Source of the DNA: a virus
Taxonomy: Duplodnaviria > Caudoviricetes
Strand: one strand, 5' to 3'
IMG/VR virus record: IMGVR_UViG_641509473_000001
Span: 1-64,000 of that record
DNA length: 64,000 bases
The notes below the pieces were generated by a model, which saw nothing but the letters and a program-made list of their open reading frames with translations, did no database searches and was not told where the DNA came from. The translations under genes and the position numbers were made by a program. Of this stretch, positions 37,853 through 64,000 are shown one piece after another. The first letter of the stretch is position 1. The number at the start of each line of letters is the position of its first letter.

Positions 37853-37912
37853 AAAAGAATAAAAGGCTAACTAGGACAGAGCCCTAGCTAGCCTACCCGC
37901 TCAAGTACCCGC

Positions 37913-38116
37913 TCAAGCCTCTACGTCGGCCTCAAGTTTGCGGGCGTTGAGCTTGCTCTTAAGCCGATAGTAAGTGGAGCGGAGCCTACGGCCGAGCATA
38001 TAGCCCTTGAAGAAAGCACGAGAACCCTTGATGAAAGGTCGCCTAGTAAAGAGCCCACGCTTAAAGCCTTTGGCCGCATCCTGGATAGCCTTCAAAAAGC
38101 TAGCAAGCTTTCCCAT
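37913..38116 (-). CDS. Basic early protein
   Basis: K/R-rich 67 aa; early motif. Confidence 0.65.
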   Translation of the reverse strand: MGKLASFLKAIQDAAKGFKRGLFTRRPFIKGSRAFFKGYMLGRRLRSTYYRLKSKLNARKLEADVEA

Positions 38117-38341
38117 AAAAGAATAATAAAAGGCTTGTCAAGAGCTAGCAAATCTAGCAAGCCACAAAAGTTCCAAGGTATGCTCGAGGCTAATAACGGC
38201 CAGAATCATGCTATTTGCTTTGCACTAGCGCTAGGTGTTGCTCTGCTCTAGCGCTTGTGGCTCAAACACTAGCTAGTGCGTTAGTGTTCAACGCTCGCTT
38301 CGCTCTAGCTTCCCTACCCAGCCCCGCTTCTCCGCCATTAT

Positions 38342-38350
38342 TATTATAGC
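38342..38350 (-). promoter_or_regulatory. Extended -10 host promoter TGCTATAAT, leftward
   Basis: Minus strand GTGTGCTATAATAAT. Confidence 0.5.
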
Positions 38351-38554
38351 ACACTTGTCAAGTCTCTAGAGTGTAGTTAGCTAAACGAGTTCCAGGTTAT
38401 GCTCGAGGCTCTCAAGCAAATAGCGCTACTGGAGCTAGGATAGAGCTAGGAGCTAGGAGTGGGGAGCTAAGAGCTAGGGCTAGGGTAGAGGCTAGAAGCT
38501 AGGAAATGGGGGTGGTTTCCCCGCACCGCGCCCGTGGCCGGTGCGCTAGGGCAC

Positions 38555-38676
38555 GAGGAGAGAGAAGGAGAGGAAGGGACTATAGGGAAGGAGAGGAAGA
38601 GAGAGGAGAGAGGAGAGAAGGGAGAAGGAGGATAGGGGTATAAGGGGAAAGGAGGAAGAGGGAAGAGAGGAGAGAG
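38555..38676. repeat. Two tandem homopurine mirror repeats (H-DNA/triplex-forming)
   Basis: 25-nt arms 38555-38579/38584-38608 and 27-nt arms 38606-38632/38650-38676 are perfect mirrors. Confidence 0.92.
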
Positions 38677-38963
38677 CAAAACGGCAATCAGTCAAAGCCC
38701 CTAGACGCATAGCGCTAGTCGCTTAGCCATGCGCCGCTAGCGCCTCCTGCTCCGCCATGCGCTAGTCGCTTCTAGCTCATGCTACCTCATCCCTCTGTTT
38801 AAATGCCCCTATAACGGCCTGTAATGCCCTTATTTGGCCCTGCATGAGGTGCCCTAGTGGTAGACACTACCCCTAGTCCTGCAAGGCCGTATAAGCCGTT
38901 ATAGAGGCTTACAGAGGCTAATGCAAAAAGAGAGGGCTAGGAAGCCCTCTTAGCCAATAGAGC

Positions 38964-40322
38964 CTAAGGATTAAGAAGCCATTCGGGTACTTTGAAGCCC
39001 TTGAACTCTTCTACAATCTTGAGCTCTTTGCCATCGTAAACTACGGTTGCCCTCTCTACTGGTAGATAGTCCGGGTGCTGCTCCAACACATATATCACGC
39101 TTGAAGATGTGATGATTAGCCTCTCATCAAAGGCTTCATCACCTCGCTCTAGCGTGATGGTACTATCATCGTCGTTTATTTCCAGATAAACGGCGTAAAT
39201 GGGGAAGTCCAAGAGGAACCTTGCCATTAGCCTCTGCTGCCATTCGTACCTTATGTACCTTCCCACAGTTCCCATAAAGGAATAAAATGTGCGCGTAGTA
39301 TGAGGCTCAAAAAGGAGAGGCTAGGAAGCCCTCTCCTCTATGCTAGCCCCAGAGGGCACAGTAAAGCCAAGCCGGAACCTTCAAGTTCGGCAATGGCTTA
39401 CCGATGAGCTTGAGGTCTTCACCATCAAAGTACCACGCGCATTGAAAATCAGGGTGGGTAACCATGATGGTACCGTCGTCATAGAGGAAGAGCGTAGTGC
39501 GGTCTTTAGACCGCATTTCCACCACGCCATCTTGCGCCCATACGTCTTTCACGTCGGGGAAGTAGGTAGCCACCCGCTTTTGGACTCTTGTCAGTTCCAT
39601 AAAGGTATAATAAGCGCTAGCAGTTCTGTGCATGGCGTACGGCTCACTAAAAAAAGGGGCTAACGCCCCCTCCAACGCTACTCGCTCTCTTCGGATGGAC
39701 CGGTAAATATTTCGGTTAGCCAAGGCGGATTTGGAAAGACCATATCGCGTCCGTTCCACACACGCTCACCATCGTAGTACGCCATGTGAATGGTGTAGCG
39801 CGTGCGCGAGTAGAAGTAGAAGCGGTCCTCCGAGTAGCACACCAACTCTCGGTATATCCCTTCGTCTTCCGATATAAAGACGAGAGCATCCTGCTCCACC
39901 TTGAGCCTAACATTCCCGTATAGGGCCAAGAACCTAGAAGCCGCTTTCTGTTGAAACTCTCCTAGCTTGTTCATGAAGGAATAAGTTCTAGAAGTGCGCG
40001 TAGTATGGAACCCCAAAAAGAGAGGGCTAGCGCCCTCTCCTGCTACCTACAAGACCTCAAGCATCCAGTTGGGGATGGCCACGTCAAAGTTGCCGCGCGT
40101 GATGAAGGTCTCGCCGTCAAAGAAGATGGAGTTCCTACCCACTCCGTCCACAGTGAGGGTATAGAGGAAAGAGCCGCCACGATAGATGACGAGCTCTTCC
40201 CTACCGGCGGCGTGATGGCGAGTAGCCACAATACGCTCGCCATCGGCAAAGAGGTCTACCGCCTTGTCGGAGGCCATCATGAAACCAGCTAGAAGCCGTT
40301 TCTGCCACGCTTGCAGTACCAT
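38964..40322 (-). CDS. Four paralogous early proteins (38964..39275, 39343..39600, 39678..39974, 40047..40322)
   Basis: Shared N-terminal Q(Q/K)(R/K) helix and C-terminal (Y/F)DG...PxW; starts reassigned to the motif-fused ATGs. Confidence 0.75.
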
Positions 40323-40398
40323 AAAGGAATAAGCAGTTCCTACCGTGCGCGCTGTACGTAGGTCCAAAAAGAGAGGGCTAGCGCCCTCTCCCCCACGC

Positions 40399-40725
40399 CT
40401 AAGCCCGCCTCCAGTATGGGGCAGGCTCGGCGTGGACTTTGGGCCACCCCGTTCCCACCTCCATCAGGACCCGCTTCAACTTCTTACGGGACAGGCCCTC
40501 CACCTGGAGGACCACCGCCGGGCCGAGCGGGTACTCGACCCAGCCATCCCTAAACTCCCCGTCGCGGAGGTCATAAACGACCTCGCGTTGGACGTGGAGC
40601 CGCGAACGTAGGCGGCCCCACACCTTCACGCATGTAGCCCCCGCGGCAACGAGGGCCTCCGCCAGCTCCCTAGCCGGGGTGGTGTCCCGGCGCGCTCCAA
40701 GCCGCACCACAACGAGCTTGGCCAT
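40399..40725 (-). CDS. Early hypothetical protein
   Basis: CTATTCTTTT-ATG. Confidence 0.65.
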   Translation of the reverse strand: MAKLVVVRLGARRDTTPARELAEALVAAGATCVKVWGRLRSRLHVQREVVYDLRDGEFRDGWVEYPLGPAVVLQVEGLSRKKLKRVLMEVGTGWPKVHAEPAPYWRRA

Positions 40726-40802
40726 AAAAGAATAGTTCTTTTGTGCTCGCCGTACGGCTCACTAAAAAAGGAGGGGCTAGAACGCCCCCTCCCTCTACCG
40801 CC

Positions 40803-40943
40803 CTACTCGTCGTCGCAATGCTCGCATAGACCTTGTGCGGCTTGCTTCAGATACCAGTATTCCAGGTTGTATTCCAGGTCGTCCTCCTCGTCCTCTTGCC
40901 AATCCGCCCATAGGTCGAGGTAGAGCAAGTCAAGCTCGCTCAT
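40803..40943 (-). CDS. 46-aa very acidic early peptide (not in ORF track)
   Basis: TTATTCCTTC-ATG; MSELDLLYLDLWADWQEDEEDDLEYNLEYWYLKQAAQGLCEHCDDE. Confidence 0.7.
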   Translation of the reverse strand: MSELDLLYLDLWADWQEDEEDDLEYNLEYWYLKQAAQGLCEHCDDE

Positions 40944-41015
40944 GAAGGAATAAGCTCCGTACTTGTGCAAGCCGTACGGAGCCCTAAAAAAGGGAGGGCT
41001 AACGCCCCCACCGCC

Positions 41016-41249
41016 CTACCAGTCTCCTCCCGCGAAGGAGACCGGGCGGTCCATTTGACGGTTCAACTCCCGCTTCAACTCCCGTAATAGCCTCCACATG
41101 GGGCTATCTTCAGGGATTTGAAGCTCGGTACCATCCAGCATTACGTAGACGGTTTCTAGGCCGTCCATCTTGACGGTTCCCCCACTTACGAGCTTGACGA
41201 CAAGCTCCCGGCCAAGTGGGGAGATTTGCACCCCCTGGACGATGTCCAT
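41016..41249 (-). CDS. Early hypothetical protein
   Basis: TTATTCCTTT-ATG. Confidence 0.7.
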   Translation of the reverse strand: MDIVQGVQISPLGRELVVKLVSGGTVKMDGLETVYVMLDGTELQIPEDSPMWRLLRELKRELNRQMDRPVSFAGGDW

Positions 41250-41323
41250 AAAGGAATAAGCTCCGTACCCGTACCCGGCGTACGGAGGTCAAAAAAGAGG
41301 GGCTAGACGCCCCCCGGCCAGAA

Positions 41324-41479
41324 CTACCACCAGTAGTCGCCTTCGTCCTGCTCCTCGAAGATGTCGGTCCCGATGTCGAGCGTTGTTATACGCTCGACGA
41401 AATCCGCAATCTCCTCAGGACGAAGCGCCCCTTCCGCCACAAGAGCCTCCACTATAGCCTCCACAGAGACTGTGCGCAT
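41324..41479 (-). CDS. gp76: gp76-type host RNAP inhibitor (51 aa, not in ORF track)
   Basis: MRTVSVEAIVEALVAEGALRPEEIADFVERITTLDIGTDIFEEQDEGDYWW; size, position and sequence fit my recollection of P23-45 gp76. Confidence 0.7.
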   Translation of the reverse strand: MRTVSVEAIVEALVAEGALRPEEIADFVERITTLDIGTDIFEEQDEGDYWW

Positions 41480-41549
41480 AGTAAAGGAATAAAGGGGGGG
41501 CTAGGGGTTTCCCCCATCGCCCCTCCTCTCTTCCGTTGCTCCCTACTAG

Positions 41550-41762
41550 CTACAAAACGGTAGGGAAGTCATCTTGCGCCCAGCAATACAAATCATAGAC
41601 CGTATGCTGGGCTAGCGGGTTTCCGTCATCGCGGTATCCAACAAGACGGTTCCCCTCACGGCAGATATACACTCGTTCCCCGGAGTGGAGAACGAGCTCC
41701 AGTTGGCCCTCATGCCGCTTAACCTCCCTGGTCGCTCGCTTAATGAGCATAGCGGTATTCAT
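41550..41762 (-). CDS. First early hypothetical protein
   Basis: TTATTCCTTT-ATG. Confidence 0.7.
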   Translation of the reverse strand: MNTAMLIKRATREVKRHEGQLELVLHSGERVYICREGNRLVGYRDDGNPLAQHTVYDLYCWAQDDFPTVL

Positions 41763-42037
41763 AAAGGAATAAAAGCCTGCTAGATGGTAGGGGGAAATCC
41801 TACAACCTAGCGGCGCGGGGTGTTGGGGGGCAACCCTCCAGACCAGGGGAGGGGGGGTGTTTTTCCACCACTCACACCCTTCACGCCACCCGCATTTCGC
41901 TTGGAAGGGAGGGGGTAGCTTCGGAAAATGCGCTTTTAAGTTCGGGCTTACGTACGTTGTATGACAAAAATCGCGTATTTCCTAGCAGATTTGACATCGT
42001 TTTGCGGGAAAATCCACGTTTTTAAAATCTTAGCCTT

Positions 42038-49741: not shown

Positions 49742-52746
<3,005 letters not shown>

Positions 52747-52747
<1 letters not shown>

Positions 52748-53241
52748 TGACCCGGCTTTCCGACCTCTTCGCCCCGGAGTGGACCCTGCAGGTGGGTGAG
52801 GAGGTCTGGAGGATGCGGCCCCTCAGTCTAGCCACGCTAGCTGAGGCTGAGGGGCAAGGCATCCTGTTGGAGAACCTGCAGGCCGGGGACCTGCAGAGCT
52901 GGACCCGGTTTTTAGAGTTCCTATCGGGCGTAGAGGCCGCCAAGCTGGTAGCCGCGCTGGAGAAGTACCCCCTAGTGCTGGAGGCGTTCCAGCGCAAGGT
53001 AATGTGGGCCTTCGGCGCGGACGACGCTAGCGAGGTCAAGGTCAACAGGAGAAGAGTTAAAAACCCGCTCAAGGATACTAAGGAAGAGGTCAAGCCCGAA
53101 CCCACGGACTTCGGCTTTCTCGTTACGCTAAGCCGCGTAACGGGAATCGCCCTTAGCGACCTCTCCCGGATGACCTTGCGCGGGTTGATGGCGGTGCAGG
53201 CGAGCCTGAAGGACTTGCCGCCCGCACCAAAGCTGTTCTGA
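52747..53241 (+). CDS. Tail assembly chaperone
   Basis: Between tail tube and tape measure genes. Confidence 0.65.
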
Positions 53242-53246: not shown

Positions 53247-53278
53247 GCCGGGGGAGGGGGACCTCCCCTGGCTTTTTT
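53247..53278 (+). terminator. GNRA-loop intrinsic terminator immediately before the tape measure gene
   Basis: GCCGGGGGAGG-GGGA-CCTCCCCTGGC-TTTTTT. Confidence 0.8.
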
Positions 53279-53286: not shown

Positions 53287-56200
53287 ATGGACCTGGAGAG
53301 ATACGCCATCGTTGTTTCCGCGGCGGTTGAGGCCGACGAGCTGGTGCTGGACCTGGACAAGTCCACCTTGGAGGAGCTGGAAGCCAAGCTCAACCAGGAG
53401 TTGGCGGGTACGGACCAGGTGGGCGAGCAAGCGGGCAAGGAGCTAGCCGAGGGCTTGGAGCGCGGCGCGGTGGAGGGCCTGGACGTTCGTCAGGTCCTGG
53501 CCAAGCTCAAGGCGGCCCTAAAAGGCGAAGTGCGCGAGCTGGCCACGGAAGAGGTCAAGGCTCTCCGCGCCGCCATCCAGCACGCCTTAGGCGTAGAGCT
53601 GGACGACAACGCCAAGCGCCAGTTGGCGGAAAGCGCCAAGCTTCTTGACCGCATCATTGAATCCGCCACCCGCAACCAGAGCCTCACGGTCAAGCTTCGG
53701 TTTGACGCCGACCGGAGCGCCCTGCTTACCGCGGAGCGCTTAGCGGACGCTTATCTAAACCGGATTAGAGAAGCTCTAAAGCAAGACAAAAGCTCTCCTC
53801 TTTACCAGGCGTTTAGCGCCTTGGCTAAGGGTACGGGGGAGAAGCTATCCCCGGACGAGGCCAAGTTCAGGGCCGGTCTATTCGCCGACGTTCGCGACCG
53901 CTTCTTGGCCCTCCTCAAGCAGGACCTGCAGAGCTACATTGCCGACCAGCTCAAACGCGGACACGCCGTTGGCGATATTAAACTGCCAGACACTCAAGCG
54001 ATACTTAGCGAAGCTGGTCTGCCCACCTTGAAGCAGGCCCTGCTCTTGAGCCGGGCGGTGGACCTGGACGCGAACAACCGGGCTAAGCTGGCCAAAGACC
54101 TCGGCCAGTTTATGCCCGAAGTGGCTCAGGTGTTAAAGGCCCCTGAAAAAGGCGCAAGTTGGGAAGAAATCAACGCCGTGGTGCGTGAGGCCAAGAAGGC
54201 CATCCACGACGCGGAGGAAGCGCGTAGAGTCGCCCTCTCGCTTAGGAGCGTAACCAAGGAGGGCAACAAACCTTTCGCCCAGCAAACGGGACGGTTCCAC
54301 ACGATAGAACTTCAGGAGGAAGGCTCTCCCGACGAGTTTCAGGAGCTTTTGCGCCTTCAGGCCAGCACTCAAGGCCATGTAGACGAAACCACCTTGGCTA
54401 GGCTTGTGGTCCAGAAGCGGGCCACCAAGGCCATCCTTAAGAAGCTTTTGGAGACTGCCGACCGCCCGGAGGAGCAGGCCGTTTGGCGGGCGGCCATTGA
54501 GCGGTTGGTTATCGGCAACACGGCGTACGATTTGAAGGACGACGAGAGCTTCGCCAAGCTCATAGAGCTAGCGAAGAAACACCCGTTAGAGAAAGTGGTT
54601 AAGAACGTCCGGGAAGTGCAGTTCTCCGAGAAGGTAACCCTAAGCGACAAGTACGCGTTTGTACCCGCCTCTAACCAGGGGCGAATCTTCCTAAGCCACC
54701 TCCGGCGGGAGAACATCTACCGCACGCCCACGCAACGGCCTTTGAGCCTTAAGGTGGCGGAAGAGGGCGAAGGGGTTCGCCTAAAAGAGATGGAGGAGAA
54801 GGCGCTAGGCGACGGCGCCTTGGGCATCTTGCGTCCCCAGTCCTTGGGGTTGCCGGAGGACTACACCGGGGTAGTGCAGGTTCGCGGCGAGCTCGCGGAC
54901 CCGGAGGGGAACGTCTACGCCGGGCTCAAGGGCACGGTCATCGTAGACCCTAGGGCCAAGGAGGATTTCCTCAACCTGAACGACCTTTACCGCGGGGACA
55001 CCGTGGTAGACGGCAAGAAGTACACCAAGGAAGAGGTGGACGCCCTCATACGGGAGAAGCTCAAGACGGGAGCGCTCCAGCTCAACCTCGGCATTCACCG
55101 CGTGTCCACGGTAGAGGAAGCCAAGGTGGGCAAGCAGGTCTTCCTGCGGCACATGGGCGGGGTGCCCTTCAACCGCGGGCGCATCTCCCCGTCCGAGGCC
55201 GCCAAGTGGGCGGCTCAGGCCAAGGAGCTCAAGTTCCTCCCCATGATTGCCGGTAGGGAGATGGGCCTCTCCCACTACCAGCAAATCGCCACCTTGGCCA
55301 AGACCTTTGGCGTGGAGGTGGACGAGGGCCAGTACTCTATGGCCGCGTCCCACACCGCCTACAAGGAGCTTGACCCGGAAATCTACCGCCTGCTGGAAGA
55401 GGGAGTGGAGCTTGACGCGGAAGGACGCCCCATCGTCCCCATCGTCATCGGCAAGGAAATGGCCGCCAAGCTCGGTTTGAAGGAAGGGGACATCGCCTTC
55501 ACCTTCCGCAACCCGGTGATGGGCCACGGCGGGGCGCTACTGCAGGCCCGCGTCGCCGCCATCCGCGACCGCCTGAACGCGGTGGTGGTTAACCAGGAGT
55601 ACGCCAAGAGCACGGGCGTGGACTTTGACGGGGATACCCTGGTAGTCCTGCCCAAGGGTCTACCCGTGGACCCGCACCGCCTGGAGGTCTTCCAGACCCT
55701 GATGGCCCACGCCGGTCTGGCCGGAGGACGTAAGGGCGGAGGTTCGGTAGAGCCCTCTCCTGGAGAGCTACGCTTCAAGGAACAACTTGAAGTGTACGAC
55801 AAGGTTCTCGCTCGGCTAAGCAAGTCCCGCTTGGCCGCGGAGCTACGCAACGCCGGGGTGGAGGACCTGAGCAACCCCTTTGAGGTGGTGCGCCAGCTAG
55901 AATCCTTGGGCGAAGAGGAGCTTCTCAAAGCGTTCAAGGGGTACTTGCGGAAAGGCTTCGCCAAGGAGCTTGGCTTGGACCTGAAGAGCGAAGAGGACCG
56001 CGCCCGGCTCAACCAGTACCTTTTTGAGGGTTTCCTGGACTACCGCAAGCAGTTCCAGGACCCAAGGCGGGTCTACAAGAAGCTTCCCCTCATGCCCTCC
56101 GCCGCTTTAGCCGCTTCTTTACTCCAGGTGGAGGCCCACAAGAAGGAGTACGACCCCTCGGACCCCGTGGCCTTGGCCGCGGGCCAGCTCACCACGTCCT

Positions 56201-59200
56201 TCCTCGGCCTATCGGAAAAGCTAGCCCAGGATTTGGAAACCTCTATAGACTTTCCCAAGTTGGCCGAAGCCATTCGCGCGTACAACCAAGCGTATTCGTC
56301 TGGAAATGAAGAGCAGGTAGCGAAGGCCAGGGCCGAGCTAGTGAAGGTGCTTAACGACCCGACCGTTCAAAAGTTCTCCCTGAGCAACCTGCTTTACCAA
56401 ATCATCACCGACCGGAAGAAGCGGGACTACAGCTTGCGGGTGCGTACCGAAAGCGGAAAGACGTACGAGTACCGAAACCTGTACGCGGTGCTTAACCGCT
56501 TGATGCAGAACCTTCCCGTAGAAGAAGTGGCCGATACGGTTTATGACGCTTCTGGACAGGCCGTAGAGGAAAGGGTTCCGCTAAAGCAAAGCGCTACAAG
56601 GTCGTTGGTGAAGGGGCTCTTGGACCTTGCTTCCGGTAAGGTGAAGGAGGACCCGGATGGCACCGTGGCCGAAGACTTGGCGGACCTTCCCGTATTCGGC
56701 GAGCTAGAACAGCTATACGGTTTAGTAGCCGACGCGAAATACGACCCTAGTAGCTTGAAGTCGGCTCTTGTCAAGCCGAACAAGCCGCAAGGTTCTTACG
56801 CTGAGATTACGACCCTCCTGTACCGGGGCATAGCTAACCAAGAGGGCTTGGCGGAAACCAACTTGCCTAGGGACGAGGTGGCTAGGCGCACCGCGGACCT
56901 TTTGGCGAAGATTGCCGACCTAAAGAGGGCGGTAGCTCTTGGTGAGCTTAGAGGGTACGAACACCTCAGCCGTCAAGAGCGCGAAGAAGTCCAAAAGTAC
57001 TACCTACGGATGCTTGAAGAGCAGGAAACGCTAGTCAAGCAGTCCTATAAAGAGCTTGTAGGCGGTACTTTGCGCTCCAAGCTTCTAGAAAGCGGGTTTA
57101 GGGAAAATCTTACCCAAGCCTTGGCCGGGACTAAGGTTTCCGAGAAGAATCTGCCGGAATACGTAGAGCGCCTTATCGGACGCATAACGGCGCCTGAAAC
57201 GGACGCGGAGCTTAGCGGCAGGCTACAGCGCGCCCGCAAGAACCAGCGCTTGGGGGTGCTCAACAAAGCGCTAGCGGAAATCTTTAGCGATAAAGACCTT
57301 GGCGTTGGGGAAGCCCAAGCCAAGAAGGTTTTAGAAGTTCTTCGCAAAGCGGATTTGCTTGACCCTAGCTTGGCCCTCAAATCCGGGGGCATGCTGTCGG
57401 CGGCCATCCTCCCTGTGAGCCGCCTCTCTACCTACCTAGACCTTGTTCAGCCGCCGGTAGCGGAGATACCTGAAGGTATTCGCAATCCAGAGCTCCGCTC
57501 CTTGCTTGAAAGGCTCAGGGGCGTGTCCAGCCACAAGTTCTGGAGCGAGCACCAGACCTACGGCGCCTTGGTGGACCGCTTGGCCGAGCTTCTTGGCGAA
57601 GACACGGAGGAAACTAAGCTCGCCAGCCGCTACGTAGCCGAAGCGTTCCTAGGCGCCGACGTGGCCTACCGCGTCCTCCCCCCCACGCACTTGGGCGAAC
57701 TGCTCCAGCGTGAAGTGGCCATCAAGGGTCAGCGCGGTAAGGCCGTCAAAGCGCTTCTTGGCGACAAAGCGCCTACGCTAGGCAACTTCTTCCAGACGGT
57801 GTACAAACCGCTCTGGGAGACGTTGGGGAACCTGTTGCCCGTAATGGGCCTTGTGAAGCGCGATGGCCGGGTTACCAACGTGGGCTACGAAGCCTTAGGC
57901 CCGGCGTTGCTCATGCCGGAAAGCCTAGTAAAAGGGGATACGCTAGCTTACGCTGACATACTGGCCAAATACGTTCCTGACCTAGAAAAGGCGCAAGCCA
58001 AGTTTGGAAAGCGCGGCGGAGTATTGCTTGAGCGTGTAGCTACGGGATACCTGGACGAGCGCGGGAAGTTTGTGGAAAGCGAGGAGCGGCGCGAGCTAGC
58101 CAAGTACCGCTTAGTAGTTCAGGGGGTGAACCTCGGCAAGCGGGCGGAGAGCATCACCGCCCTTCTCACCGCCGCGGTCAACCGGGTGCTTCCCGCTTCC
58201 GCTACCGTGGACAACCTAACCCCGGTGGCCCGCTTCAACCGCGAGTTGGAGCGCACCCTGCTTCAGGCCATACAGGAGGCGGTGGAGGAGCCTACCAACC
58301 TAGGCGAAGCCAAGGCGTTGGAGGCTCTAGAGGAAGCCGTGAACCAGGTGCACCAGGCCGTGGCCGAGGAGGTGAAGGACCCCGCGGTCAAAGCCGCCCT
58401 AGAAGAGGCCAAGGAGCGAGTTTTGGAGGCGCTCAAGGCCGAAGCCGAGGCCAAAGAGCCCTCCGAGCTGGAAGAGGTCAAGGAGAAGGCCAGGGAGCTT
58501 CAGGAAGCTAAGGAGAAGAACCGCGAGCGCATCCGTAGCGCCGTGGCCCGGCTGAAAGCGGGCGAGGCCAAGCTCCAGCGCATCCAGGCGCTTAAAGAGA
58601 GGCAGGACCACATCACCGGGCGCGAGCCCGTAGACGAGAAGACCCTGGAAGCTCAAGCCGCCTTCGCCGCTAGGTACGCCACCGAGGCGGTGGAGCGCGG
58701 GCAGTACGACGCCGCCGAACAGATTTTGGAGTCCATGAAGGCCAACCCCACGGTCAACGCCAAGGCCGTAGAGGAAGCGCAACGCGTGGTGCGCAATCTG
58801 GCTTCCGCCTCTGGCGGGGGCGGCGGGGACCGTCCACCTTCCAAGCCTCCGGCTCCTCCTCCGCCTCCAGAACCTGAGGACGAGGAGCGCAAGCGTAAAG
58901 AGCGCAAGGTGGTCTACTGGCCTTCCGTCTTCTTCACCGAAAAAGAACGGCAAGCGCTTTTTGGTACGCCAGAAAAACCAAAAGACTTCTCTTGGAGCGT
59001 GTACCGCGGCCTTGTGCGCAACCAGGCCGAGGAAGAGCTCTTCCGAGCGATTTACCTCAACTCTCAACGCGGCCAGTCCTCTAAGCTCGGTTTTTACGAC
59101 TTTGTCGTGGAATACCCGGAGGTGGCCAACGCGTTCTTCGGTCCTCTACGCTCCTTCGCTGGTCGTGAAACCGTATTGCCGGAAAAGTACTTAGCGAGCT

Positions 59201-62200
59201 TAGCCGAACAGTTCGACAACATCCTCTCGGCCTACGAAGCCGGGGATATGGACACCCTAACCAACCTGGTGGAAGACCTGAACATTAGCGTCAAACGAAT
59301 GGAGAACGCGAGCAAGATTTTGGCCGACCTCCGCGAGTTCAAGCGCACAGGGGCTCTTCCCCACGGCAGGAACCTACACACGGCTTCCAGAGACGCCCTC
59401 TACTACCGCCGTCTGATGAGCCTTGGTGGTAAGGAGCTTGAGCGGGCGGTGGAGGAGGGCGACCTGGACACCGTGCTCAAGGTGGCCGACCGGGCAAGGC
59501 ACGTGGAAGAGCGCATCAAGCTAGTGCAGAACGCCATCTCCAACTCCTTGGCCTTCATGCTTTCCAGCACGGTCATGGGCCTATTCGGCACCATTCAGCA
59601 GGAGTTCGTCAAGATTGACCGTCAGGCCAAGGCCGTGGCCGCGCTGGCCAACATGACTGGAAAAGAGGGAATCGGTAAGGGACTCTCTCAAGTGGCCAAT
59701 GCTTTGAACGTGGCTCAGGAGGAGCTCACCCAGGCCCTGGTAGCCCTGAGCAAGGAAGGACATGACCCGGAGAAGGCCCGCGAGACCTTTGCCCGGCTCA
59801 AGGGGGTGCTGGACGCCACCGGCGAGGGAATGAACGAGCTGGTTCAGCTCTACAAGGAGCTGGACCGGGTAGGGGTGGAGTCCAAAGACGCGCTCATAAA
59901 GAGCGTGGTCAAGGAGCGGGTCTATCTTGGCGAGGCCGCCGAGGTGGTGAGCAAGCTCAACCTGAAGCCTGGAGAAGTAAAGGCTTCCGACCTGGACGAA
60001 CTGATTGTGGCCGCGAGCCGCTACTACCGCTCTGGGGTGCCCCTAGTCCTACCGGAGAGGGGCGAGGAGCGTAGAAAGCGCTTAGAAGAACTGGTTAAGG
60101 AAGGCCGGGCCATCGCGGCAAGCACCCCCGACGCCAAGACCGCCCTAGAGCCCACGGCCATGGAAAGGCTCTTGAAGCAGGCGGAGCGCACCATGCGGGC
60201 GGTGATTGAGGCCGCCAAACCCGCTCTAGCCGTTATTGGAAGCTTCCTCATGGCCTTGCTCAAGGTGTTGGAGGGCGTGGCGTACGTGCTTAGCACCCCC
60301 TTGGGCAAGGTGGCGGTGGTGGCGGGAACCATCTACGCCACCCTCCTCGCCATCATGCAAATCCAGAAGACCTTCCAGGTGGCGGAGTGGGTGAAGAGCC
60401 TGATGGTGGGCCTGCAGGAGCTAAACGCGGAGCTGGTGAGCTTCCTGAAGAACCTGGTGCGGGCCTTCACCGACGGGACCTTCGCCGAAGGGCTCAAGAA
60501 CGGGCCTTTCGGCTCCCTGGTGCAGACCCTGCTGGGGAGCCTCGAGGCCGTGTTCAACCACCCCAAGCTCCGCGAGTTTGGCGCGGCGTTAGAGAGGGTG
60601 GTGAAGGGCGCCTTTGAGCGCATCAAGGTTGGCGCGGGAAGCGTGGCCGACCTCTTGCGCCGCGTTATCTTGGGCGACCGCGAAATCCCCATCGGGTTTG
60701 TGGACCCAAGCTCGGCCCGTATGGCGGAGCTTGTTCGCAAGCATGGTTGGAAAGGCGTGGTTACCGGCGCTTTGCCCATCCTCGGCGTGTTGGGAGCCGG
60801 GGCGTACCAGATGGCCCACGCCGGGGACATGAACCCCTTCCAGCACCTCTTGGCCACGGCGGGCAACGCCCTCATGTTCGCCTCCATGTTCCTACCCGGT
60901 GGGGTCTTGGTGCGCGGCCTTACCTTGCCCTTGCGGGCCTTGGCCGGAGCGGCGGGCGCGGGGCTTGCCTTTGGCGTGCCCTTCTTGGCCGAAAGGACCA
61001 AGCGCGCTAGGGAAAGCGCCGAAGCCGATAAGGAGTTCAACCGGGCGTTGTCCATCGCGGGAGGACCGGAAGCCTTGGCCAAGGCCGTGGCGGGCGAGCT
61101 CACCCCGGCTTTGGAAAAGGCCGGATACAACGCGGAAAACCTAGGTCAAATCCTGGACGCCGCCATGACCAAGGGAAGCGCCAAGGTGAAGAACGCGGCC
61201 CGCGAGGTCAAGGCTATGGCCGATAGCCTGGTGGGCGTGCGTCGGGTGATGGACGGCCTAGAGGAGCGCTCGCGTAAGTATGTTCAGGAATACGCTTCCT
61301 ACTTCCGCTTCGCCGGGTCCAACGCGTTCACCACGCTAACCGACGAGCAGTTGGAAGTCTTCAACCGCCTATTCACCACCGAGCTAACCCAAGAGCCCGC
61401 ATACCGGGTCTTGACCAAAGGGCTCAACCTCCGCCTGCAGGCCAAGATAGTTGAGCTATTCCAACAGAACTTCATAGAAGGACCTTTGGGGTTTATGGCA
61501 AGAGGTTTAGGCATAGACCAAGGCAAGCTACTGTACGAAGTGGCCAAAGTGCGCGAAGAAGCCCGCCAGTTTAGCATGGTGGACCAGGGCTACTTCCCGG
61601 AGCTCTTCAAGTCCGCTAGCTTGGACTACTACACCGGGAAGGGTCTGGACTACAACCTGAAGAACGCCCTGATGGTGGAGCTCCTGAGCGGGCTTCGCGG
61701 GGCCACGCTTGGCGAAACGCTTAAGCGCACCCAAAGCGCCCTTGGCTTGGTGGGGGCTAGCACCGGATTCGCTATCGGCACGGCCATTCTTCCCGGTGCC
61801 GGTAGCTTCCTGGGAGCCTTGCTTGGCTACCTGCTTAGCCAGTTCGCTAGCCCTTACGTAGCGGGCTTGGCTCAGAGGTACGGCAACCTGAACGTGGTGC
61901 GGCCCACGGGCTATCCATCCGCCTCCCTTAGGGCCGCGCTCTCCGTGGCCGGGGCTAGCGCTCAGGTAGAGGCCGACCTGGTGGACGCTTTGAAGACCGA
62001 CGGGGTAAAGAGGGCGGAAGCGGTATTCACCAGGGGCCTTTCCGCCTTCCGGGGCAAGGAGAGGGTGAAAGCCCGCCAAGCGGTGGAAGAGGCGGTCAAA
62101 GAGCTTAACGAATACGTGAGCACCGTGCAGAGCGGCCTGGTCAAGCAGTACACCCTCCAGGCCCTAGGCTTTGACTTCAAGGCCCGGCTTGAAGGCGGAC

Positions 62201-64000
62201 AGGCGTACATGAGCCTTGGGGGTCTTGGTACCCGCCGGATACGCTCCCAGCTTCCTGAGCTGGAGGCCCAGTACCGCGCCGAGCTAGAGAAGCTTAACAT
62301 TCTAGAAGCCGGGTTTAGTAAGTACCTCACCTTCACCCGCACAGACTCTGGGGTGGAGGTGCGCATACGGGAAGGGCAGGAACTTAACCCCATCGCGCAA
62401 GCGGCTTTCGCCCGCGCGGTGGAAGAGGTCAAGGACTTTGGTCTCAACCTCGCCAAGCTAAACGACCAGCTCAAGCAGGTGCGCTTTGCCGAGCTCTTAG
62501 AGCAAATCGCCATCAAGGCCGAAGAGGCGTTCGTGCGCCGGATTGGCCAGATTGGCCAAGGCGCGGAGCTGGTGGCCGGTAAGCTCGCGATGCCGGAAAG
62601 CCCCTTCAACGCCTTCCTCAACCGCCTGGTGCAGAATAACCTTAGGGACACCGGGCTCTTCGGGGACACCCGCGGCGGCCTTGCTTCGCCGCAAGGCTTC
62701 AACCCGACCTCCGTGTTCGGCGGTAAGGTTACCCAGAAGCCTGGAGAAAAGCTTACCAACCCCAACGGCCACCGGGGGTACGACATCGCCCTGCCCGCGG
62801 GCTCGCCCGTGCGCTGGGGCAATGTTGAAGGCAAGGTGCTCCAGGTGGGCTACGAGGAGAAGGGCTACGGGAACTACGTGGCCGTCCAGGCCCCGGATGG
62901 GAGCGTTCACATCTTCGCTCACCTGCAGGAGCTTCCCAAGCTAAAGCCGGGGAGCGTGGTGAAGCCTGGTCAAGTGCTAGGCAAGTCTGGAAGCACGGGT
63001 AAGTCCACCGGGCCGCACCTGCACTACGAAATCCTCTCCCCCAACCGGGTGCCCGTGCGGGACGAGGCGGCTTTCCAGACATACGCTAGCCGCGTGTACG
63101 GCCAGAACGCCCTAAGCGTTCCCGCCTCGGAGTTCCTGCTAGACGAGAAGACCCTGAAGGAAGCCGAGCTCGCGTGGCGGAAGGTGATGGCGCCCTACTT
63201 CGCCGCCCCGTACGGCACCAGCGTGGAAAAGCGGCAGGAGCTTCTCAACCGGGCGGTTCAGGCGGCCCAGCAAGACGCCGCCATCCGCAAGGCGGCCCTC
63301 ACCGCCTTCCAGCAGGTGTACGAGCGGGCGCCTAAGAAGGGCGAGCTGGAAGCCTTCGTGCGCAAGGTGATTTACCTGAGCGCCGAAGGGCGGGACCTGG
63401 ACAACGCCCTAATCCTCGCCTTGGGCGAAGCCCAGGCTAGGGAGCGGGAAACGGCTATGGAGAAGGGCACGGTGCGGCTTGAGCGGGAGCTTTACGCCCC
63501 CGACAAGACCATCACCACCTTCCGCTTCCAGCGGGAGCAGGCGGAGAAGGAGTTTGAAGAGGCCAGGCTACGCGCCAAGACGGAGATGGAGACCGCCTTG
63601 GCCCAGCTGGACGCCCGCTACAAGACGGACCAGCGCCCGGTGGACCTAGCCTACCGCTCCGAACGCCAGCGCATTCTGGACCGCTACAAGACCGAGGTAG
63701 CTAGGCTTCAGCAAAACCTAGACGTCAAGCTAGCGGAGATTGCGTACAACGAACTGGTCTACCGGCTTGAAAGGGAAACGGCCCTCATCCGCAACGAACG
63801 GGAGCGCATCACCCGCCAGCTCAACGCGCTCAAAGCTTACCGGGAGCAGAACTGGAACAAGCTCAAGGCCAACACCAACGCCGAGCTAAACAAGCGGATT
63901 GAAGAGCTAGAGCTCCAACTGGCCATGATGGGGCCGGACTTCAGCGCTTTGCGTGAAGCCGAGGTCCGGGCCAACCTAGCCCAGATGCTCACCGGGCTAA
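53287..64000 (+). CDS. Giant tail tape measure protein with N-terminal virion RNA polymerase and internal M23 peptidase (3' truncated by window)
   Basis: ATG 53287; the track lists no closed ORF in this frame and the frame is open at 64000 (>3570 codons). GDG (54808), QVR (54877), GLKG (54922), FRNP (55504), DFDGD (55621); TMP-like helical core and hydrophobic segments 59.5-61.9 kb; HRGYD (62770) and HLH (63016). Confidence 0.92.
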   Translation, partial: MDLERYAIVVSAAVEADELVLDLDKSTLEELEAKLNQELAGTDQVGEQAGKELAEGLERGAVEGLDVRQVLAKLKAALKGEVRELATEEVKALRAAIQHALGVELDDNAKRQLAESAKLLDRIIESATRNQSLTVKLRFDADRSALLTAERLADAYLNRIREALKQDKSSPLYQAFSALAKGTGEKLSPDEAKFRAGLFADVRDRFLALLKQDLQSYIADQLKRGHAVGDIKLPDTQAILSEAGLPTLKQALLLSRAVDLDANNRAKLAKDLGQFMPEVAQVLKAPEKGASWEEINAVVREAKKAIHDAEEARRVALSLRSVTKEGNKPFAQQTGRFHTIELQEEGSPDEFQELLRLQASTQGHVDETTLARLVVQKRATKAILKKLLETADRPEEQAVWRAAIERLVIGNTAYDLKDDESFAKLIELAKKHPLEKVVKNVREVQFSEKVTLSDKYAFVPASNQGRIFLSHLRRENIYRTPTQRPLSLKVAEEGEGVRLKEMEEKALGDGALGILRPQSLGLPEDYTGVVQVRGELADPEGNVYAGLKGTVIVDPRAKEDFLNLNDLYRGDTVVDGKKYTKEEVDALIREKLKTGALQLNLGIHRVSTVEEAKVGKQVFLRHMGGVPFNRGRISPSEAAKWAAQAKELKFLPMIAGREMGLSHYQQIATLAKTFGVEVDEGQYSMAASHTAYKELDPEIYRLLEEGVELDAEGRPIVPIVIGKEMAAKLGLKEGDIAFTFRNPVMGHGGALLQARVAAIRDRLNAVVVNQEYAKSTGVDFDGDTLVVLPKGLPVDPHRLEVFQTLMAHAGLAGGRKGGGSVEPSPGELRFKEQLEVYDKVLARLSKSRLAAELRNAGVEDLSNPFEVVRQLESLGEEELLKAFKGYLRKGFAKELGLDLKSEEDRARLNQYLFEGFLDYRKQFQDPRRVYKKLPLMPSAALAASLLQVEAHKKEYDPSDPVALAAGQLTTSFLGLSEKLAQDLETSIDFPKLAEAIRAYNQAYSSGNEEQVAKARAELVKVLNDPTVQKFSLSNLLYQIITDRKKRDYSLRVRTESGKTYEYRNLYAVLNRLMQNLPVEEVADTVYDASGQAVEERVPLKQSATRSLVKGLLDLASGKVKEDPDGTVAEDLADLPVFGELEQLYGLVADAKYDPSSLKSALVKPNKPQGSYAEITTLLYRGIANQEGLAETNLPRDEVARRTADLLAKIADLKRAVALGELRGYEHLSRQEREEVQKYYLRMLEEQETLVKQSYKELVGGTLRSKLLESGFRENLTQALAGTKVSEKNLPEYVERLIGRITAPETDAELSGRLQRARKNQRLGVLNKALAEIFSDKDLGVGEAQAKKVLEVLRKADLLDPSLALKSGGMLSAAILPVSRLSTYLDLVQPPVAEIPEGIRNPELRSLLERLRGVSSHKFWSEHQTYGALVDRLAELLGEDTEETKLASRYVAEAFLGADVAYRVLPPTHLGELLQREVAIKGQRGKAVKALLGDKAPTLGNFFQTVYKPLWETLGNLLPVMGLVKRDGRVTNVGYEALGPALLMPESLVKGDTLAYADILAKYVPDLEKAQAKFGKRGGVLLERVATGYLDERGKFVESEERRELAKYRLVVQGVNLGKRAESITALLTAAVNRVLPASATVDNLTPVARFNRELERTLLQAIQEAVEEPTNLGEAKALEALEEAVNQVHQAVAEEVKDPAVKAALEEAKERVLEALKAEAEAKEPSELEEVKEKARELQEAKEKNRERIRSAVARLKAGEAKLQRIQALKERQDHITGREPVDEKTLEAQAAFAARYATEAVERGQYDAAEQILESMKANPTVNAKAVEEAQRVVRNLASASGGGGGDRPPSKPPAPPPPPEPEDEERKRKERKVVYWPSVFFTEKERQALFGTPEKPKDFSWSVYRGLVRNQAEEELFRAIYLNSQRGQSSKLGFYDFVVEYPEVANAFFGPLRSFAGRETVLPEKYLASLAEQFDNILSAYEAGDMDTLTNLVEDLNISVKRMENASKILADLREFKRTGALPHGRNLHTASRDALYYRRLMSLGGKELERAVEEGDLDTVLKVADRARHVEERIKLVQNAISNSLAFMLSSTVMGLFGTIQQEFVKIDRQAKAVAALANMTGKEGIGKGLSQVANALNVAQEELTQALVALSKEGHDPEKARETFARLKGVLDATGEGMNELVQLYKELDRVGVESKDALIKSVVKERVYLGEAAEVVSKLNLKPGEVKASDLDELIVAASRYYRSGVPLVLPERGEERRKRLEELVKEGRAIAASTPDAKTALEPTAMERLLKQAERTMRAVIEAAKPALAVIGSFLMALLKVLEGVAYVLSTPLGKVAVVAGTIYATLLAIMQIQKTFQVAEWVKSLMVGLQELNAELVSFLKNLVRAFTDGTFAEGLKNGPFGSLVQTLLGSLEAVFNHPKLREFGAALERVVKGAFERIKVGAGSVADLLRRVILGDREIPIGFVDPSSARMAELVRKHGWKGVVTGALPILGVLGAGAYQMAHAGDMNPFQHLLATAGNALMFASMFLPGGVLVRGLTLPLRALAGAAGAGLAFGVPFLAERTKRARESAEADKEFNRALSIAGGPEALAKAVAGELTPALEKAGYNAENLGQILDAAMTKGSAKVKNAAREVKAMADSLVGVRRVMDGLEERSRKYVQEYASYFRFAGSNAFTTLTDEQLEVFNRLFTTELTQEPAYRVLTKGLNLRLQAKIVELFQQNFIEGPLGFMARGLGIDQGKLLYEVAKVREEARQFSMVDQGYFPELFKSASLDYYTGKGLDYNLKNALMVELLSGLRGATLGETLKRTQSALGLVGASTGFAIGTAILPGAGSFLGALLGYLLSQFASPYVAGLAQRYGNLNVVRPTGYPSASLRAALSVAGASAQVEADLVDALKTDGVKRAEAVFTRGLSAFRGKERVKARQAVEEAVKELNEYVSTVQSGLVKQYTLQALGFDFKARLEGGQAYMSLGGLGTRRIRSQLPELEAQYRAELEKLNILEAGFSKYLTFTRTDSGVEVRIREGQELNPIAQAAFARAVEEVKDFGLNLAKLNDQLKQVRFAELLEQIAIKAEEAFVRRIGQIGQGAELVAGKLAMPESPFNAFLNRLVQNNLRDTGLFGDTRGGLASPQGFNPTSVFGGKVTQKPGEKLTNPNGHRGYDIALPAGSPVRWGNVEGKVLQVGYEEKGYGNYVAVQAPDGSVHIFAHLQELPKLKPGSVVKPGQVLGKSGSTGKSTGPHLHYEILSPNRVPVRDEAAFQTYASRVYGQNALSVPASEFLLDEKTLKEAELAWRKVMAPYFAAPYGTSVEKRQELLNRAVQAAQQDAAIRKAALTAFQQVYERAPKKGELEAFVRKVIYLSAEGRDLDNALILALGEAQARERETAMEKGTVRLERELYAPDKTITTFRFQREQAEKEFEEARLRAKTEMETALAQLDARYKTDQRPVDLAYRSERQRILDRYKTEVARLQQNLDVKLAEIAYNELVYRLERETALIRNERERITRQLNALKAYREQNWNKLKANTNAELNKRIEELELQLAMMGPDFSALREAEVRANLAQMLTGL

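What the first reader, a model, noticed from the sequence alone, without database searches (positions are those of the whole stretch)
53287..58900. RNA polymerase fused to the N-terminus of the tail tape measure protein
The ORF track misses this gene because it has no stop in the window. Translating from ATG 53287 gives, in order: ALGDGALGI (about residue 508), VQVR, YAGLKGTVI (K548), TFRNP (about 739) and STGVDFDGDT (D779-D783). This is the complete two double-psi-barrel catalytic signature: a DxDGD metal loop preceded by RxP, plus the second barrel's DG/QxR/KG. It lies in a protein whose position (after tail tube and chaperone) and downstream part (helical core, hydrophobic segments, M23 domain) are those of a tape measure protein. 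Tape measure proteins are ejected into the cell, so this would deliver a polymerase with the DNA for host-independent first-wave transcription. I recall this has been reported for P23-45 gp96, so it is exceptional but probably not new if this is that phage.
Basis: partly seen in the sequence, partly recalled or inferred. Interest (0 to 1): 0.95.

Follow-up and report, generated by a model that had tools for sequence, protein, structure and literature searches.

The report
Known phage tape-measure protein with RNA polymerase

Summary
An ORF starts at ATG 53287 and runs off the window without a stop. In the parent record it closes after 5002 codons, giving 549.6 kDa.

Residues 1-1200 match PDB chain 8h2m_A and residues 327-1124 match 8h2n_A without a mismatch in the printed columns. 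These are the crystal structures of Thermus phage P23-45 gp96 from Chaban et al. 2024 (PMC10770324). That paper shows:
- RNA-primer extension by N-terminal fragments of 1200 residues or more
- the RNAP domain present in virions as part of full-length gp96
- gp96 bound to the pre-early genes 5 min after infection
- a flat, clamp-less two-barrel fold

New here:
- The same blocks are invariant in the 39%-identical TSP4 orthologue.

Relatives were found in 7 of 50,697 phage records, all Thermus phages. Pattern scans of three other collections found none.

Verdict: already known, low interest.

The parts
53287..63999 (+). gp96 tape measure protein / virion RNAP gene, first 3571 of 5002 codons. It continues to position 68295 of the parent record.
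   Evidence: PHROG 23188 'tail length tape measure protein' has a 5002-position profile matched end to end.
53287..56886 (+). Residues 1-1200: the crystallised, catalytically active fragment (PDB 8H2M).
   Evidence: query 1-1200 aligns to chain 15-1214 at 2581 bits, identical in all printed columns. The printout was cut at about residue 957. Paper sections read.
54265..56658 (+). Residues 327-1124: the shortest fragment that the paper reports as retaining RNAP activity (PDB 8H2N).
   Evidence: identical from residue 327 to 1124. Paper passage.
54802..54942 (+). DPBB-B block: GDG (506-514), VQVR (530-533) and KG (544-552, K548).
   Evidence: Positions. Invariant G-D-G, V-V-Q-V-R and K-G-T-V in the alignment with stolb3 and TSP4. 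Aligned to FGDGIVGI, AQVR and WKGVIV of gp64 (E 9e-7).
55123..55323 (+). Residues 613-679: the short connector between the barrels. It is disordered in the crystals and stands in place of a clamp element.
   Evidence: Paper section 11. Coordinates computed from the residue numbers.
55501..55635 (+). DPBB-A block: TFRNP (739-743) to the metal-binding DFDGD (779-783).
   Evidence: Positions. R-N-P and T-G-x-D-F-D-G-D are invariant. Aligned to NRRP and PTGADYDGD of gp64 (E 0.003). The paper names 779-DFDGD-783 as the metal-binding sequence.
58813..58875 (+). Gly/Pro-rich hinge, residues 1843-1863, followed by an acidic and basic run.
   Evidence: a P/G-rich run is present at the equivalent place in stolb3 (1834-1869) and TSP4 (1865-1909). 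The 'hinge' function is my inference.
60202..60366 (+). Hydrophobic segments, residues 2306-2360.
   Evidence: Kyte-Doolittle, 19-residue window, at least 1.6. The paper mentions transmembrane domains.
61768..61824 (+). Hydrophobic segment, residues 2828-2846.
62767..63039 (+). Peptidase M23 domain, residues 3161-3251.
   Evidence: Pfam PF01551, E 9.6e-22, 77.4 bits against a cut-off of 28.7. Several PHROG peptidase and endolysin families also match.
51701..52747 (+). Tail tube protein gene.
   Evidence: Pfam PF18906, E 1.6e-30. phrog_290 minor tail protein.
52747..53241 (+). 164-aa ORF in the position of a tail assembly chaperone. Function not shown.
   Evidence: No Pfam family. phrog_25449, unknown function.
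53247..53272 (+). Terminator-like hairpin (11 pairs, 9 G-C) plus a T run, 14 nt before the gp96 ATG.
   Evidence: 4 overlapping hits in the 1.1-kb region against 0.9 expected.
35290..37146 (-). gp64, the non-virion RNAP and paralogue of the gp96 RNAP domain. The paper reports it as a pre-early gene transcribed by gp96.
   Evidence: PDB 8f72_A at 1432 bits. The paper assigns 8F72 to P23-45 gp64. hhalign against gp96.
33069..41772 (-). Region holding 12 copies of an AT-rich motif abutting start codons and 7 terminator-like motifs. It is the presumed template of the virion RNAP.
   Evidence: The paper reports gp96 ChIP signal on a 9-kb region with genes 59-77 and AT-rich promoters. That my motif equals the published logo is inferred, because the logo is a figure.

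Best explanation
The ORF is gene 96 of Thermus phage P23-45 (or a record indistinguishable from it over the parts tested). It encodes a single 5002-residue polypeptide.

Domain layout:
- The N-terminal part is a single-subunit two-barrel RNA polymerase. The minimal active core is residues 327-1124. DPBB-B lies around 500-612 and DPBB-A around 680-800, with the Mg-binding DFDGD at 779-783.
- After a conserved Gly/Pro hinge near residue 1850 comes a tape measure protein with hydrophobic segments and an M23 peptidase domain.

Shown in the literature:
- The RNAP domain sits in the virion as part of full-length gp96.
- N-terminal fragments of 1200 residues or more extend RNA on a DNA template.
- Five minutes after infection gp96 is bound to a 9-kb region at the genome end that holds genes 59-77. 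These pre-early genes include gene 64 for a second, non-virion RNAP.

Inferred by the authors and by me:
- The tape measure protein is ejected through the tail and forms the envelope channel.
- The tethered polymerase starts at AT-rich promoters on the first DNA to enter, independently of the host RNAP.
For: Identity to solved structures:
- phmmer against the PDB gives 8h2m_A (query 1-1200, 2581 bits) and 8h2n_A (query 320-1124, 1744 bits). No mismatch appears in the printed native columns.
- The paper assigns 8H2M and 8H2N to P23-45 gp96 residues 1-1200 and 327-1124.

Agreement with the paper's numbers:
- 5002 residues, 549.6 kDa and DFDGD at 779-783.
- The record length of 84201 equals the non-redundant P23-45 genome length stated in PMC11437467 (passage).

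Experiments read in PMC10770324:
- primer extension and virion western blot
- ChIP-seq
- promoters and terminators
- structure comparison
- discussion of the mechanism

Tests run here:
- BLASTP of gp96 320-1124 against gp64 aligns the GDG/QVR/KG block (E 9e-7) and the RNP...DFDGD block (E 0.003).
- hhalign of a 3-sequence vRNAP alignment against a 2-sequence nvRNAP alignment gives one collinear 253-column match spanning both barrels, probability 89.7%, E 1.9e-6.
- All five motif cores are invariant in TSP4 at 39% identity.
- 3 of the 6 megablast records annotate the gene as 'tape measure protein and virion RNAP'.
- Tail tube gene upstream and M23 domain downstream.
- 12 of 12 AT-rich motif hits lie on the minus strand at 33069-41772, against 0.30 expected by chance. 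Each ends in an ATG that opens an ORF of 36-212 aa.
Against: Nothing found here contradicts the reading. The limits are these.
- No sequence family library detects the polymerase. Pfam at E up to 1 gives no RNAP family for residues 1-1200 or for gp64. A profile search of the PDB finds only 8h2n, 8h2m and, weakly, 8f72 (E 0.061) and 8f5m (E 0.26), with no cellular RNAP or QDE-1. The link to cellular RNAPs therefore rests on the published structures, not on anything I computed.
- The paper's primer-extension assay uses a scaffold. I saw no statement in the sections I read of promoter-specific initiation in vitro by purified gp96 fragments.
- Ejection of gp96 into the cell and its tethering at a pore are hypotheses of the authors.
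- I ran no structure prediction or fold search.
Confidence: 0.97

Rival explanations
1. An ordinary giant tape measure protein in which DFDGD and the other short motifs are chance matches, with no polymerase function.
For: A bare DxDxD is common by chance: 655 of 2000 shuffles contain one, and a second one (DLDPD) sits at residue 4972. No Pfam RNAP family matches.
Against: The sequence is identical to crystallised fragments that the paper reports as two-barrel RNAPs with primer-extension activity. The motifs are invariant at 39% identity. They are collinear with those of gp64. D[FY]DGD appears in only 2 of 2000 shuffles.
Confidence: 0.01
2. The polymerase works as a separate protein. It would be released from the tape measure part by proteolysis, for example at the Gly/Pro hinge near residue 1850 or by the protein's own M23 domain, during assembly or after ejection, so the fusion would be only a delivery precursor.
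For: A conserved Gly/Pro-rich, charged linker at residues 1843-1863 is present in all three lineages examined. Isolated fragments of 1200-1540 residues are active and monomeric. An M23 peptidase lies in the same chain.
Against: [quoted passage not shown] The authors favour a tethered enzyme. M23 domains in tape measure proteins are generally taken to cut peptidoglycan (general knowledge, not tested). No data that I saw address the state after ejection.
Confidence: 0.1
3. The window comes from a close relative (a P74-26- or G20c-like phage) rather than P23-45 itself, so the published experiments would apply only by homology.
For: The phage collection omits the window's own record, so the best listed hits are P74-26 (97.8% nt) and G20c (96.5%).
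Against: There is no mismatch to the P23-45 gp96 PDB chains over the printed columns, whereas P74-26 is 99.1% identical in protein over residues 327-1124. The length of 5002 aa, the mass of 549.6 kDa and the record length of 84201 all equal the published P23-45 values. gp64 scores higher against 8f72 (P23-45, 1432 bits) than against 8f5m (P74-26 gp62, 1349 bits).
Confidence: 0.02

Closest known systems
Thermus phage P23-45 gp96 (TMP-fused virion RNAP; PDB 8H2M, 8H2N; Chaban et al. 2024, PMC10770324)
   Same: It is the same protein. Residues 1-1200 are identical to the crystallised chain in the printed columns. The length (5002 aa), mass (549.6 kDa) and DFDGD position (779-783) are the same.
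   Different: No difference was found. Residues 1201-5002 could not be compared letter by letter with the deposited gene, because the window's own record is left out of the collections. The PHROG 23188 profile of 5002 positions is matched end to end.
Orthologous TMP-RNAP fusions in Thermus phages P74-26, G20c, P23-45_stolb1-3 and TSP4
   Same: The RNAP domain lies inside the annotated tape measure gene in all 7 of 7 matching records. Protein identities over residues 327-1124 are 99.1% (P74-26, two records), 98.4%, 82.2-82.7% and 34.0%. All five motif cores and the Gly/Pro hinge are conserved in stolb3 and TSP4.
   Different: The TSP4 gene is slightly longer (CDS of 15090 nt) and strongly diverged. 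The stolb3 protein is 4989 aa.
P23-45 gp64 non-virion RNAP (PDB 8F72), window 35290-37146, minus strand
   Same: It is a paralogous two-barrel single-subunit RNAP in the same genome. One collinear alignment spans both barrels (hhalign E 1.9e-6; BLASTP). The paper finds that the two share DPBB-B loops absent from other RNAPs.
   Different: It has 618 aa and stands alone. It is absent from virions, has a crab-claw shape with a clamp, uses GC-rich promoters and transcribes early and some middle genes.
crAss-like phage phi14:2 gp66 (PDB 6VR4) and Neurospora QDE-1 (PDB 2J7N)
   Same: Both are single-subunit two-barrel RNAPs. According to the paper, gp66 is a virion RNAP embedded in a very large protein.
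   Different: They share an extended helix and N-terminal elements that are absent from the P23-45 enzymes, and they have a clamp. No sequence similarity was detectable here: neither appears in the profile search of the PDB at E up to 10. gp66 is not part of a tape measure protein.
Phage N4 virion RNAP (gp50)
   Same: Functional analogy: a polymerase packed in the virion within a giant protein and injected to transcribe the first genes. The paper's discussion cites N4-related phages.
   Different: From my own knowledge and not tested here, N4 vRNAP belongs to the T7-like single-subunit family, not the two-barrel family. N4 is a podovirus without a tape measure protein.

Membership tests
Two-barrel (double-psi beta-barrel) RNA polymerases | DPBB-A carrying the metal-binding DxDxD motif | tested here: met
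   DFDGD at 779-783 is invariant in stolb3 and TSP4 and aligns with DYDGD of gp64. The fold assignment comes from the crystal structure of the identical sequence (paper section), not from a fold computed here.
Two-barrel (double-psi beta-barrel) RNA polymerases | A second barrel (DPBB-B) with conserved basic residues facing the active site | tested here: inconclusive
   GDG, VQVR and KG blocks at 506-552 are invariant among orthologues and shared with gp64 (E 9e-7). They lie N-terminal of the 613-679 connector, where the paper places DPBB-B. I could not check which residues correspond to the catalytic lysines and arginine of cellular beta.
Two-barrel (double-psi beta-barrel) RNA polymerases | Bridge helix and trigger loop | not tested
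   The paper reports them as conserved in all the RNAPs it compared. I did not locate them in the sequence.
Two-barrel (double-psi beta-barrel) RNA polymerases | Template-dependent RNA synthesis | not testable with these tools
   Published: the 1200-, 1360- and 1540-residue fragments extend an RNA primer on an RNA-DNA scaffold, and the 1050-residue fragment is inactive.
Two-barrel (double-psi beta-barrel) RNA polymerases | Detectable sequence similarity to cellular beta/beta' or to QDE-1 or YonO families | tested here: not met
   No RNAP family in Pfam at E up to 1. A profile search of the PDB at E up to 10 returns only the P23-45 and P74-26 proteins. The paper likewise says that similarity is confined to the DxDxD region. 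This is not a defining feature once structures exist, but it explains why annotation pipelines miss the domain.
Tail tape measure proteins of long-tailed phages | Gene located after the tail tube and chaperone genes in the late morphogenesis module | tested here: met
   The tail tube gene (PF18906) lies at 51701-52747, then a 164-aa ORF, then gp96. The order is the same in stolb3, where terminase, portal, protease, capsid and tube genes precede it. The chaperone identity of the 164-aa ORF is not shown.
Tail tape measure proteins of long-tailed phages | Long, largely helical protein with hydrophobic segments and often a peptidoglycan hydrolase domain | tested here: met
   M23 domain at 3161-3251. 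Hydrophobic segments at 2306-2360, 2828-2846 and 4892-4927. A+E+K+L+R make up 46-55% of residues in every 500-aa bin. Helicity itself was not predicted.
Tail tape measure proteins of long-tailed phages | Present in the virion, with its length setting the tail length | not testable with these tools
   Virion presence is published (western blot). The abstract states that the TMP defines the length of the very long tail.

The most novel reading that the evidence does not exclude
The whole N-terminal module, residues 1 to about 1840, is set off from the tape measure proper by a conserved Gly/Pro hinge. Under this reading it stays tethered at the envelope channel and acts as a transcription-driven motor that helps draw the first 9 kb or so of DNA into the cell. 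The twelve closely spaced single-gene cassettes would serve as successive re-engagement points. In these cassettes an AT-rich motif abuts the ATG with no room for a Shine-Dalgarno leader, and in 8 of 12 a terminator-like motif follows 15-47 nt after the stop. Tethering is the authors' hypothesis. The hinge, the cassette architecture and the motor role are my inference and were not tested.
Probability: 0.12. Interest if true: 0.6.

Novelty: already known. Interest (0 to 1): 0.1.

Why it matters
The biology is exceptional. A cellular-type (two-barrel) RNA polymerase is fused to the protein that measures a phage tail, packed in the virion, and used for host-independent transcription of the first genes to enter the cell. 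It was published with activity assays, ChIP-seq, transcription start-site mapping and two crystal structures (PMC10770324), so this window adds no discovery.

For the scan there are two practical points:
- A reader working from sequence alone recovered a domain that Pfam, PHROGs and deposited annotations miss. The paralogue gp64 is still labelled 'head protein', 'capsid protein' or 'envelope glycoprotein' in several records.
- Genes that run off a window need the open-ended ORF listing.

Questions the paper itself names as open: how the enzyme is packed in or along the tail tube, and how it interacts with the TMP and transcribes the pre-early genes. Whether it is cleaved after ejection and how it ends transcripts at the conserved terminator motif also looked unresolved in the sections I read.

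Tried and rejected
Searches for further relatives found nothing.
- The search for related loci with the single protein in viral contigs: 25 pattern matches, 0 confirmed.
- With alignment A1 in viral contigs: 515 pattern matches, 0 confirmed.
- With A1 in genome contigs: 266 matches, 0 confirmed.
- With A1 in metagenome contigs: 101 matches, 0 confirmed.
- These scans depend on two short peptide patterns each and leave out the window's own record. They show no relative at that sensitivity, not absence.

Family libraries:
- Pfam gives no RNAP family for gp96 1-1200 or for gp64 even at E up to 1. The only rows are sub-threshold ATP-synt_ab_C and HTH_29 hits, which I disregard.
- PHROGs only recognises the protein as its own 5002-position TMP family.

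Crystal structures of the identical sequence exist. A single-sequence or very shallow-alignment model of an orphan family would test the predictor and not the finding. The close relatives came from annotated-region loci, which the fold tools refuse, and I did not try to bring them in another way.

Chance reading of DxDxD: considered and rejected as an explanation. The motif alone is not significant.

Literature:
- I read the abstract, outline and sections 6, 7, 8, 11 and 13 of PMC10770324, plus passages from other sections.
- I read passages only of PMC11437467 and PMC5312081.
- Three paper searches were run. The second found no later paper holding 'vRNAP', 'tape measure protein' and 'Thermus' together other than PMC10770324.
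- The 2011 paper on P23-45 temporal gene classes (PMC3018760) is not held. I therefore could not check whether the AT-rich motif I counted is the published early-promoter motif or whether these transcripts are leaderless.
- Supplements are closed and were not requested. Supplementary Figs 4 and 7-11 and Supplementary Data 1, 2 and 4 of PMC10770324 bear on the motif logos, the residue-level barrel alignment and the survey of viral two-barrel RNAPs.

Full report
**1. The observation**

The six-frame listing with open ends shows one + strand frame from ATG 53287 to the last full codon of the window. It is 3571 aa and flagged '3open'. Its translation has no stop, and the nearest upstream in-frame stop is TGA at 53239.

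The window is bases 1-64000 of an 84201-base virus record. I fetched record positions 53287-70000. There the frame closes after 5002 codons (locus 1..15009), giving 549.6 kDa.

- ALGDGALGI at 506-514
- VQVR at 530-533
- YAGLKGTVI at 544-552 (K548)
- TFRNP at 739-743
- STGVDFDGDT at 775-784 (D779, D781, D783)

A bare DxDxD is not beyond chance. 655 of 2000 shuffles of the protein contain one, and a second one (DLDPD) lies at 4972. D[FY]DGD arises in 2 of 2000 shuffles.

**2. What it is**

A phmmer search of residues 1-1400 against all PDB chains returned two distinct sequences, both named 'Tape tail measure protein'.
- 8h2m_A: query 1-1200 to chain 15-1214, 2581 bits. No mismatch is visible, but the printout was cut near residue 957.
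- 8h2n_A: query 320-1124 to chain 17-821, 1744 bits. Identical from residue 327 to 1124. The first seven aligned columns are the construct's tag.

A full-text search found Chaban et al., Nat Commun 2024 (PMC10770324). Its data-availability passage assigns 8H2N and 8H2M to P23-45 gp96 residues 327-1124 and 1-1200. The paper gives gp96 as 5,002 residues and 549.6 kDa, with the metal-binding sequence 779-DFDGD-783. These are the numbers I obtained. PMC11437467 states that the non-redundant P23-45 genome is 84,201 bp (passage), which is the length of the parent record. The window is therefore P23-45, or a record indistinguishable from it where tested.

**3. What has been shown for this protein (from the sections I read)**

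- N-terminal fragments of 1200, 1360 and 1540 residues extend the RNA of an RNA-DNA scaffold. The 1050-residue fragment does not. All are monomers.
- The shortest active piece in a cell-free assay is residues 327-1124.
- ChIP-seq at 5 min places gp96 on a 9-kb region with genes 59-77 at the genome end, which includes gene 64. gp64 spreads over 49 kb.
- Start-site mapping links 14 start sites to an AT-rich motif assigned to gp96 and 7 to a GC-rich motif assigned to gp64. Seven terminators near that end share a 26-nt motif.
- The structure is a two-barrel RNAP with DPBB-A, DPBB-B, a bridge helix and a trigger loop. It is flat and has no clamp. The 613-679 connector is disordered.
- The authors hypothesise that the flat shape allows passage through the tail channel. 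They also propose that the enzyme works while associated with the pore that the TMP forms in the envelope. Those two steps are hypotheses, not results.

**4. Tests I ran**

*Fusion.* There is one uninterrupted frame in P23-45. The same is true of P23-45_stolb3 (4989 aa, no stop) and of the first 2094 residues of TSP4. The TSP4 CDS is annotated as 15090 nt.

*Paralogy with gp64.* ORF 35290-37146 on the minus strand matches PDB 8f72_A (1432 bits) and 8f5m_A (1349 bits), which the paper assigns to P23-45 gp64 and P74-26 gp62.
- BLASTP of gp96 320-1124 against it gives two collinear segments.
- gp96 454-568 against gp64 63-170 has E 9e-7. It pairs LGDGALGI with FGDGIVGI, VQVR with AQVR, and LKGTVIVDP with WKGVIVTHP.
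- gp96 731-789 against gp64 280-338 has E 0.003. It pairs FRNP with NRRP, and STGVDFDGD with PTGADYDGD.
- A profile-profile comparison (3 vRNAP sequences against 2 nvRNAP sequences) gives one 253-column alignment from gp96 468-790 to gp64 77-339, probability 89.7%, E 1.9e-6.

*Conservation.* In an alignment with stolb3 (90% identity) and TSP4 (39%), the columns G-D-G, V-V-Q-V-R, K-G-T-V, R-N-P and T-G-x-D-F-D-G-D are invariant.

*Distribution.*
- tblastn of residues 327-1124 against 50,697 phage records finds 7 records, all Thermus phages: P74-26 twice, G20c, stolb1-3 and TSP4. Each hit lies inside the tape measure gene.
- gp64 finds the same 7 records.
- Pattern-based scans of IMG/VR, GTDB species genomes and JGI metagenomes confirmed no relative.

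*Tape measure features.*
- Tail tube gene upstream (PF18906, E 1.6e-30) and M23 peptidase at 3161-3251 (E 9.6e-22).
- Hydrophobic segments at 2306-2360, 2828-2846 and 4892-4927.
- PHROG 23188 'tail length tape measure protein' matched over all 5002 positions.
- The 164-aa ORF before gp96 has no annotated family, so 'chaperone' is only positional.

*What sequence methods do not see.*
- Pfam gives no RNAP family for residues 1-1200 or for gp64 at E up to 1.
- A profile of the barrel region finds only the four P23-45 and P74-26 chains in the PDB at E up to 10.
- The relation to cellular RNAPs is therefore structural and taken from the paper.

**5. The template region**

Repeat analysis of 32000-44300 led to two motifs.
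- TTATTCYTTTATGG, allowing up to 2 mismatches, has 12 matches in the 64-kb window. All are on the minus strand between 33069 and 41772, against 0.30 expected and 0 of 100 shuffles reaching 12.
- Each copy ends in an ATG that opens a minus-strand ORF of 36-212 aa (12 of 12). The ten bases before the ATG are the motif itself.
- TAGCCCYCTCYTTTTT, the 3' half of a G+C hairpin plus a T run, has 8 matches against 0.38 expected. Seven are on the minus strand between 37602 and 41503.
- For 8 of the 12 ORFs such a site follows 15-47 nt after the stop.
- Place, strand and numbers fit the paper's AT-rich promoters and 26-nt terminator motif for gp96. The published logos are figures or supplements that I could not see, so the equation is an inference.

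**6. Mechanism**

Shown:
- a single polypeptide
- a two-barrel RNAP core with Mg-binding DFDGD
- activity of the isolated N-terminal fragments
- presence in virions as the full-length protein
- early occupancy of the pre-early region, which encodes gp64

Inferred:
- ejection with the TMP through the tail
- tethering at the envelope channel
- initiation at the AT-rich motifs on the first DNA to enter
- hand-over to gp64, and later to the modified host RNAP

**7. Comparison and novelty**

The feature is P23-45 gp96 itself, so it is already known. It resembles crAss-like gp66 and N4 gp50 in being a virion polymerase inside a giant protein. It differs from both in being part of the tape measure protein and in lacking a clamp. 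The N4 family assignment is from my own knowledge.

- the explicit gp96/gp64 motif correspondence
- the cassette layout of the pre-early region

**8. Verdict**

- Observation: confirmed.
- Interpretation: supported.
- Novelty: already known.
- Interest: 0.1.
- Confidence in the explanation: 0.97.

Noticed in passing
window 33069-41772, minus strand: Twelve copies of TTATTCYTTTATGG (0.30 expected by chance), each ending in the ATG of a small ORF of 36-212 aa. The motif leaves no room for a Shine-Dalgarno leader, which suggests leaderless or near-leaderless pre-early mRNAs. This is probably the published AT-rich vRNAP promoter, but I could not see the logo.
   Followed up: partly
window 37602-41503, minus strand: Seven copies of a conserved G+C hairpin with a T run (core TAGCCCYCTCYTTTTT). 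For 8 of the 12 small ORFs above, one lies 15-47 nt after the stop, which gives one-gene promoter-terminator cassettes. This is probably the 26-nt terminator motif of the paper.
   Followed up: partly
window 53247-53272, + strand: A strong terminator-like hairpin (11 pairs, 9 G-C, then TTTTTTCTTC) sits between the 164-aa ORF and the gp96 start codon, inside the late tail operon. It might lower the level of the giant TMP transcript relative to the tube protein.
   Followed up: no
window 58813-58875, + strand (gp96 residues 1843-1863): A Gly5-Pro-rich linker followed by an acidic and basic run, conserved in position in stolb3 (1834-1869) and TSP4 (1865-1909). It is a possible hinge or processing site between the RNAP-bearing N-terminal module and the tape measure proper.
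   Followed up: partly
window 35290-37146, minus strand: The non-virion RNAP gp64 is still mislabelled in public resources: 'head protein' (PHROG 25317 and NC_009804), 'capsid protein' (G20c), and 'TPR_REGION domain-containing protein' and 'Envelope glycoprotein gp62' (PDB molecule names).
   Followed up: no
window 5225-7411, minus strand: A 728-aa family A DNA polymerase matching PDB 7r0k_A over its full length (1626 bits). Its N-terminal roughly 314 residues also match the separate chain 7r0t_A, 'Exonuclease ExnV1'.
   Followed up: no
record position 68200 region (gp96 residue 4972, outside the window): A second DxDxD string (DLDPD) lies near the C-terminus of gp96. It is most likely chance, since 655 of 2000 shuffles give at least one DxDxD.
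   Followed up: yes
gp96 as a whole: 5002 residues at the 1.5 Å rise per residue of an alpha-helix would span about 750 nm. The abstract of PMC10034513 (listing) gives 'nearly 1 um' for the tail of the sister phage P74-26. Even the full chain, RNAP part included, seems short for a purely helical ruler. How the folded polymerase is accommodated is unexplained. The 1.5 Å figure is textbook knowledge and the arithmetic is mine.
   Followed up: no
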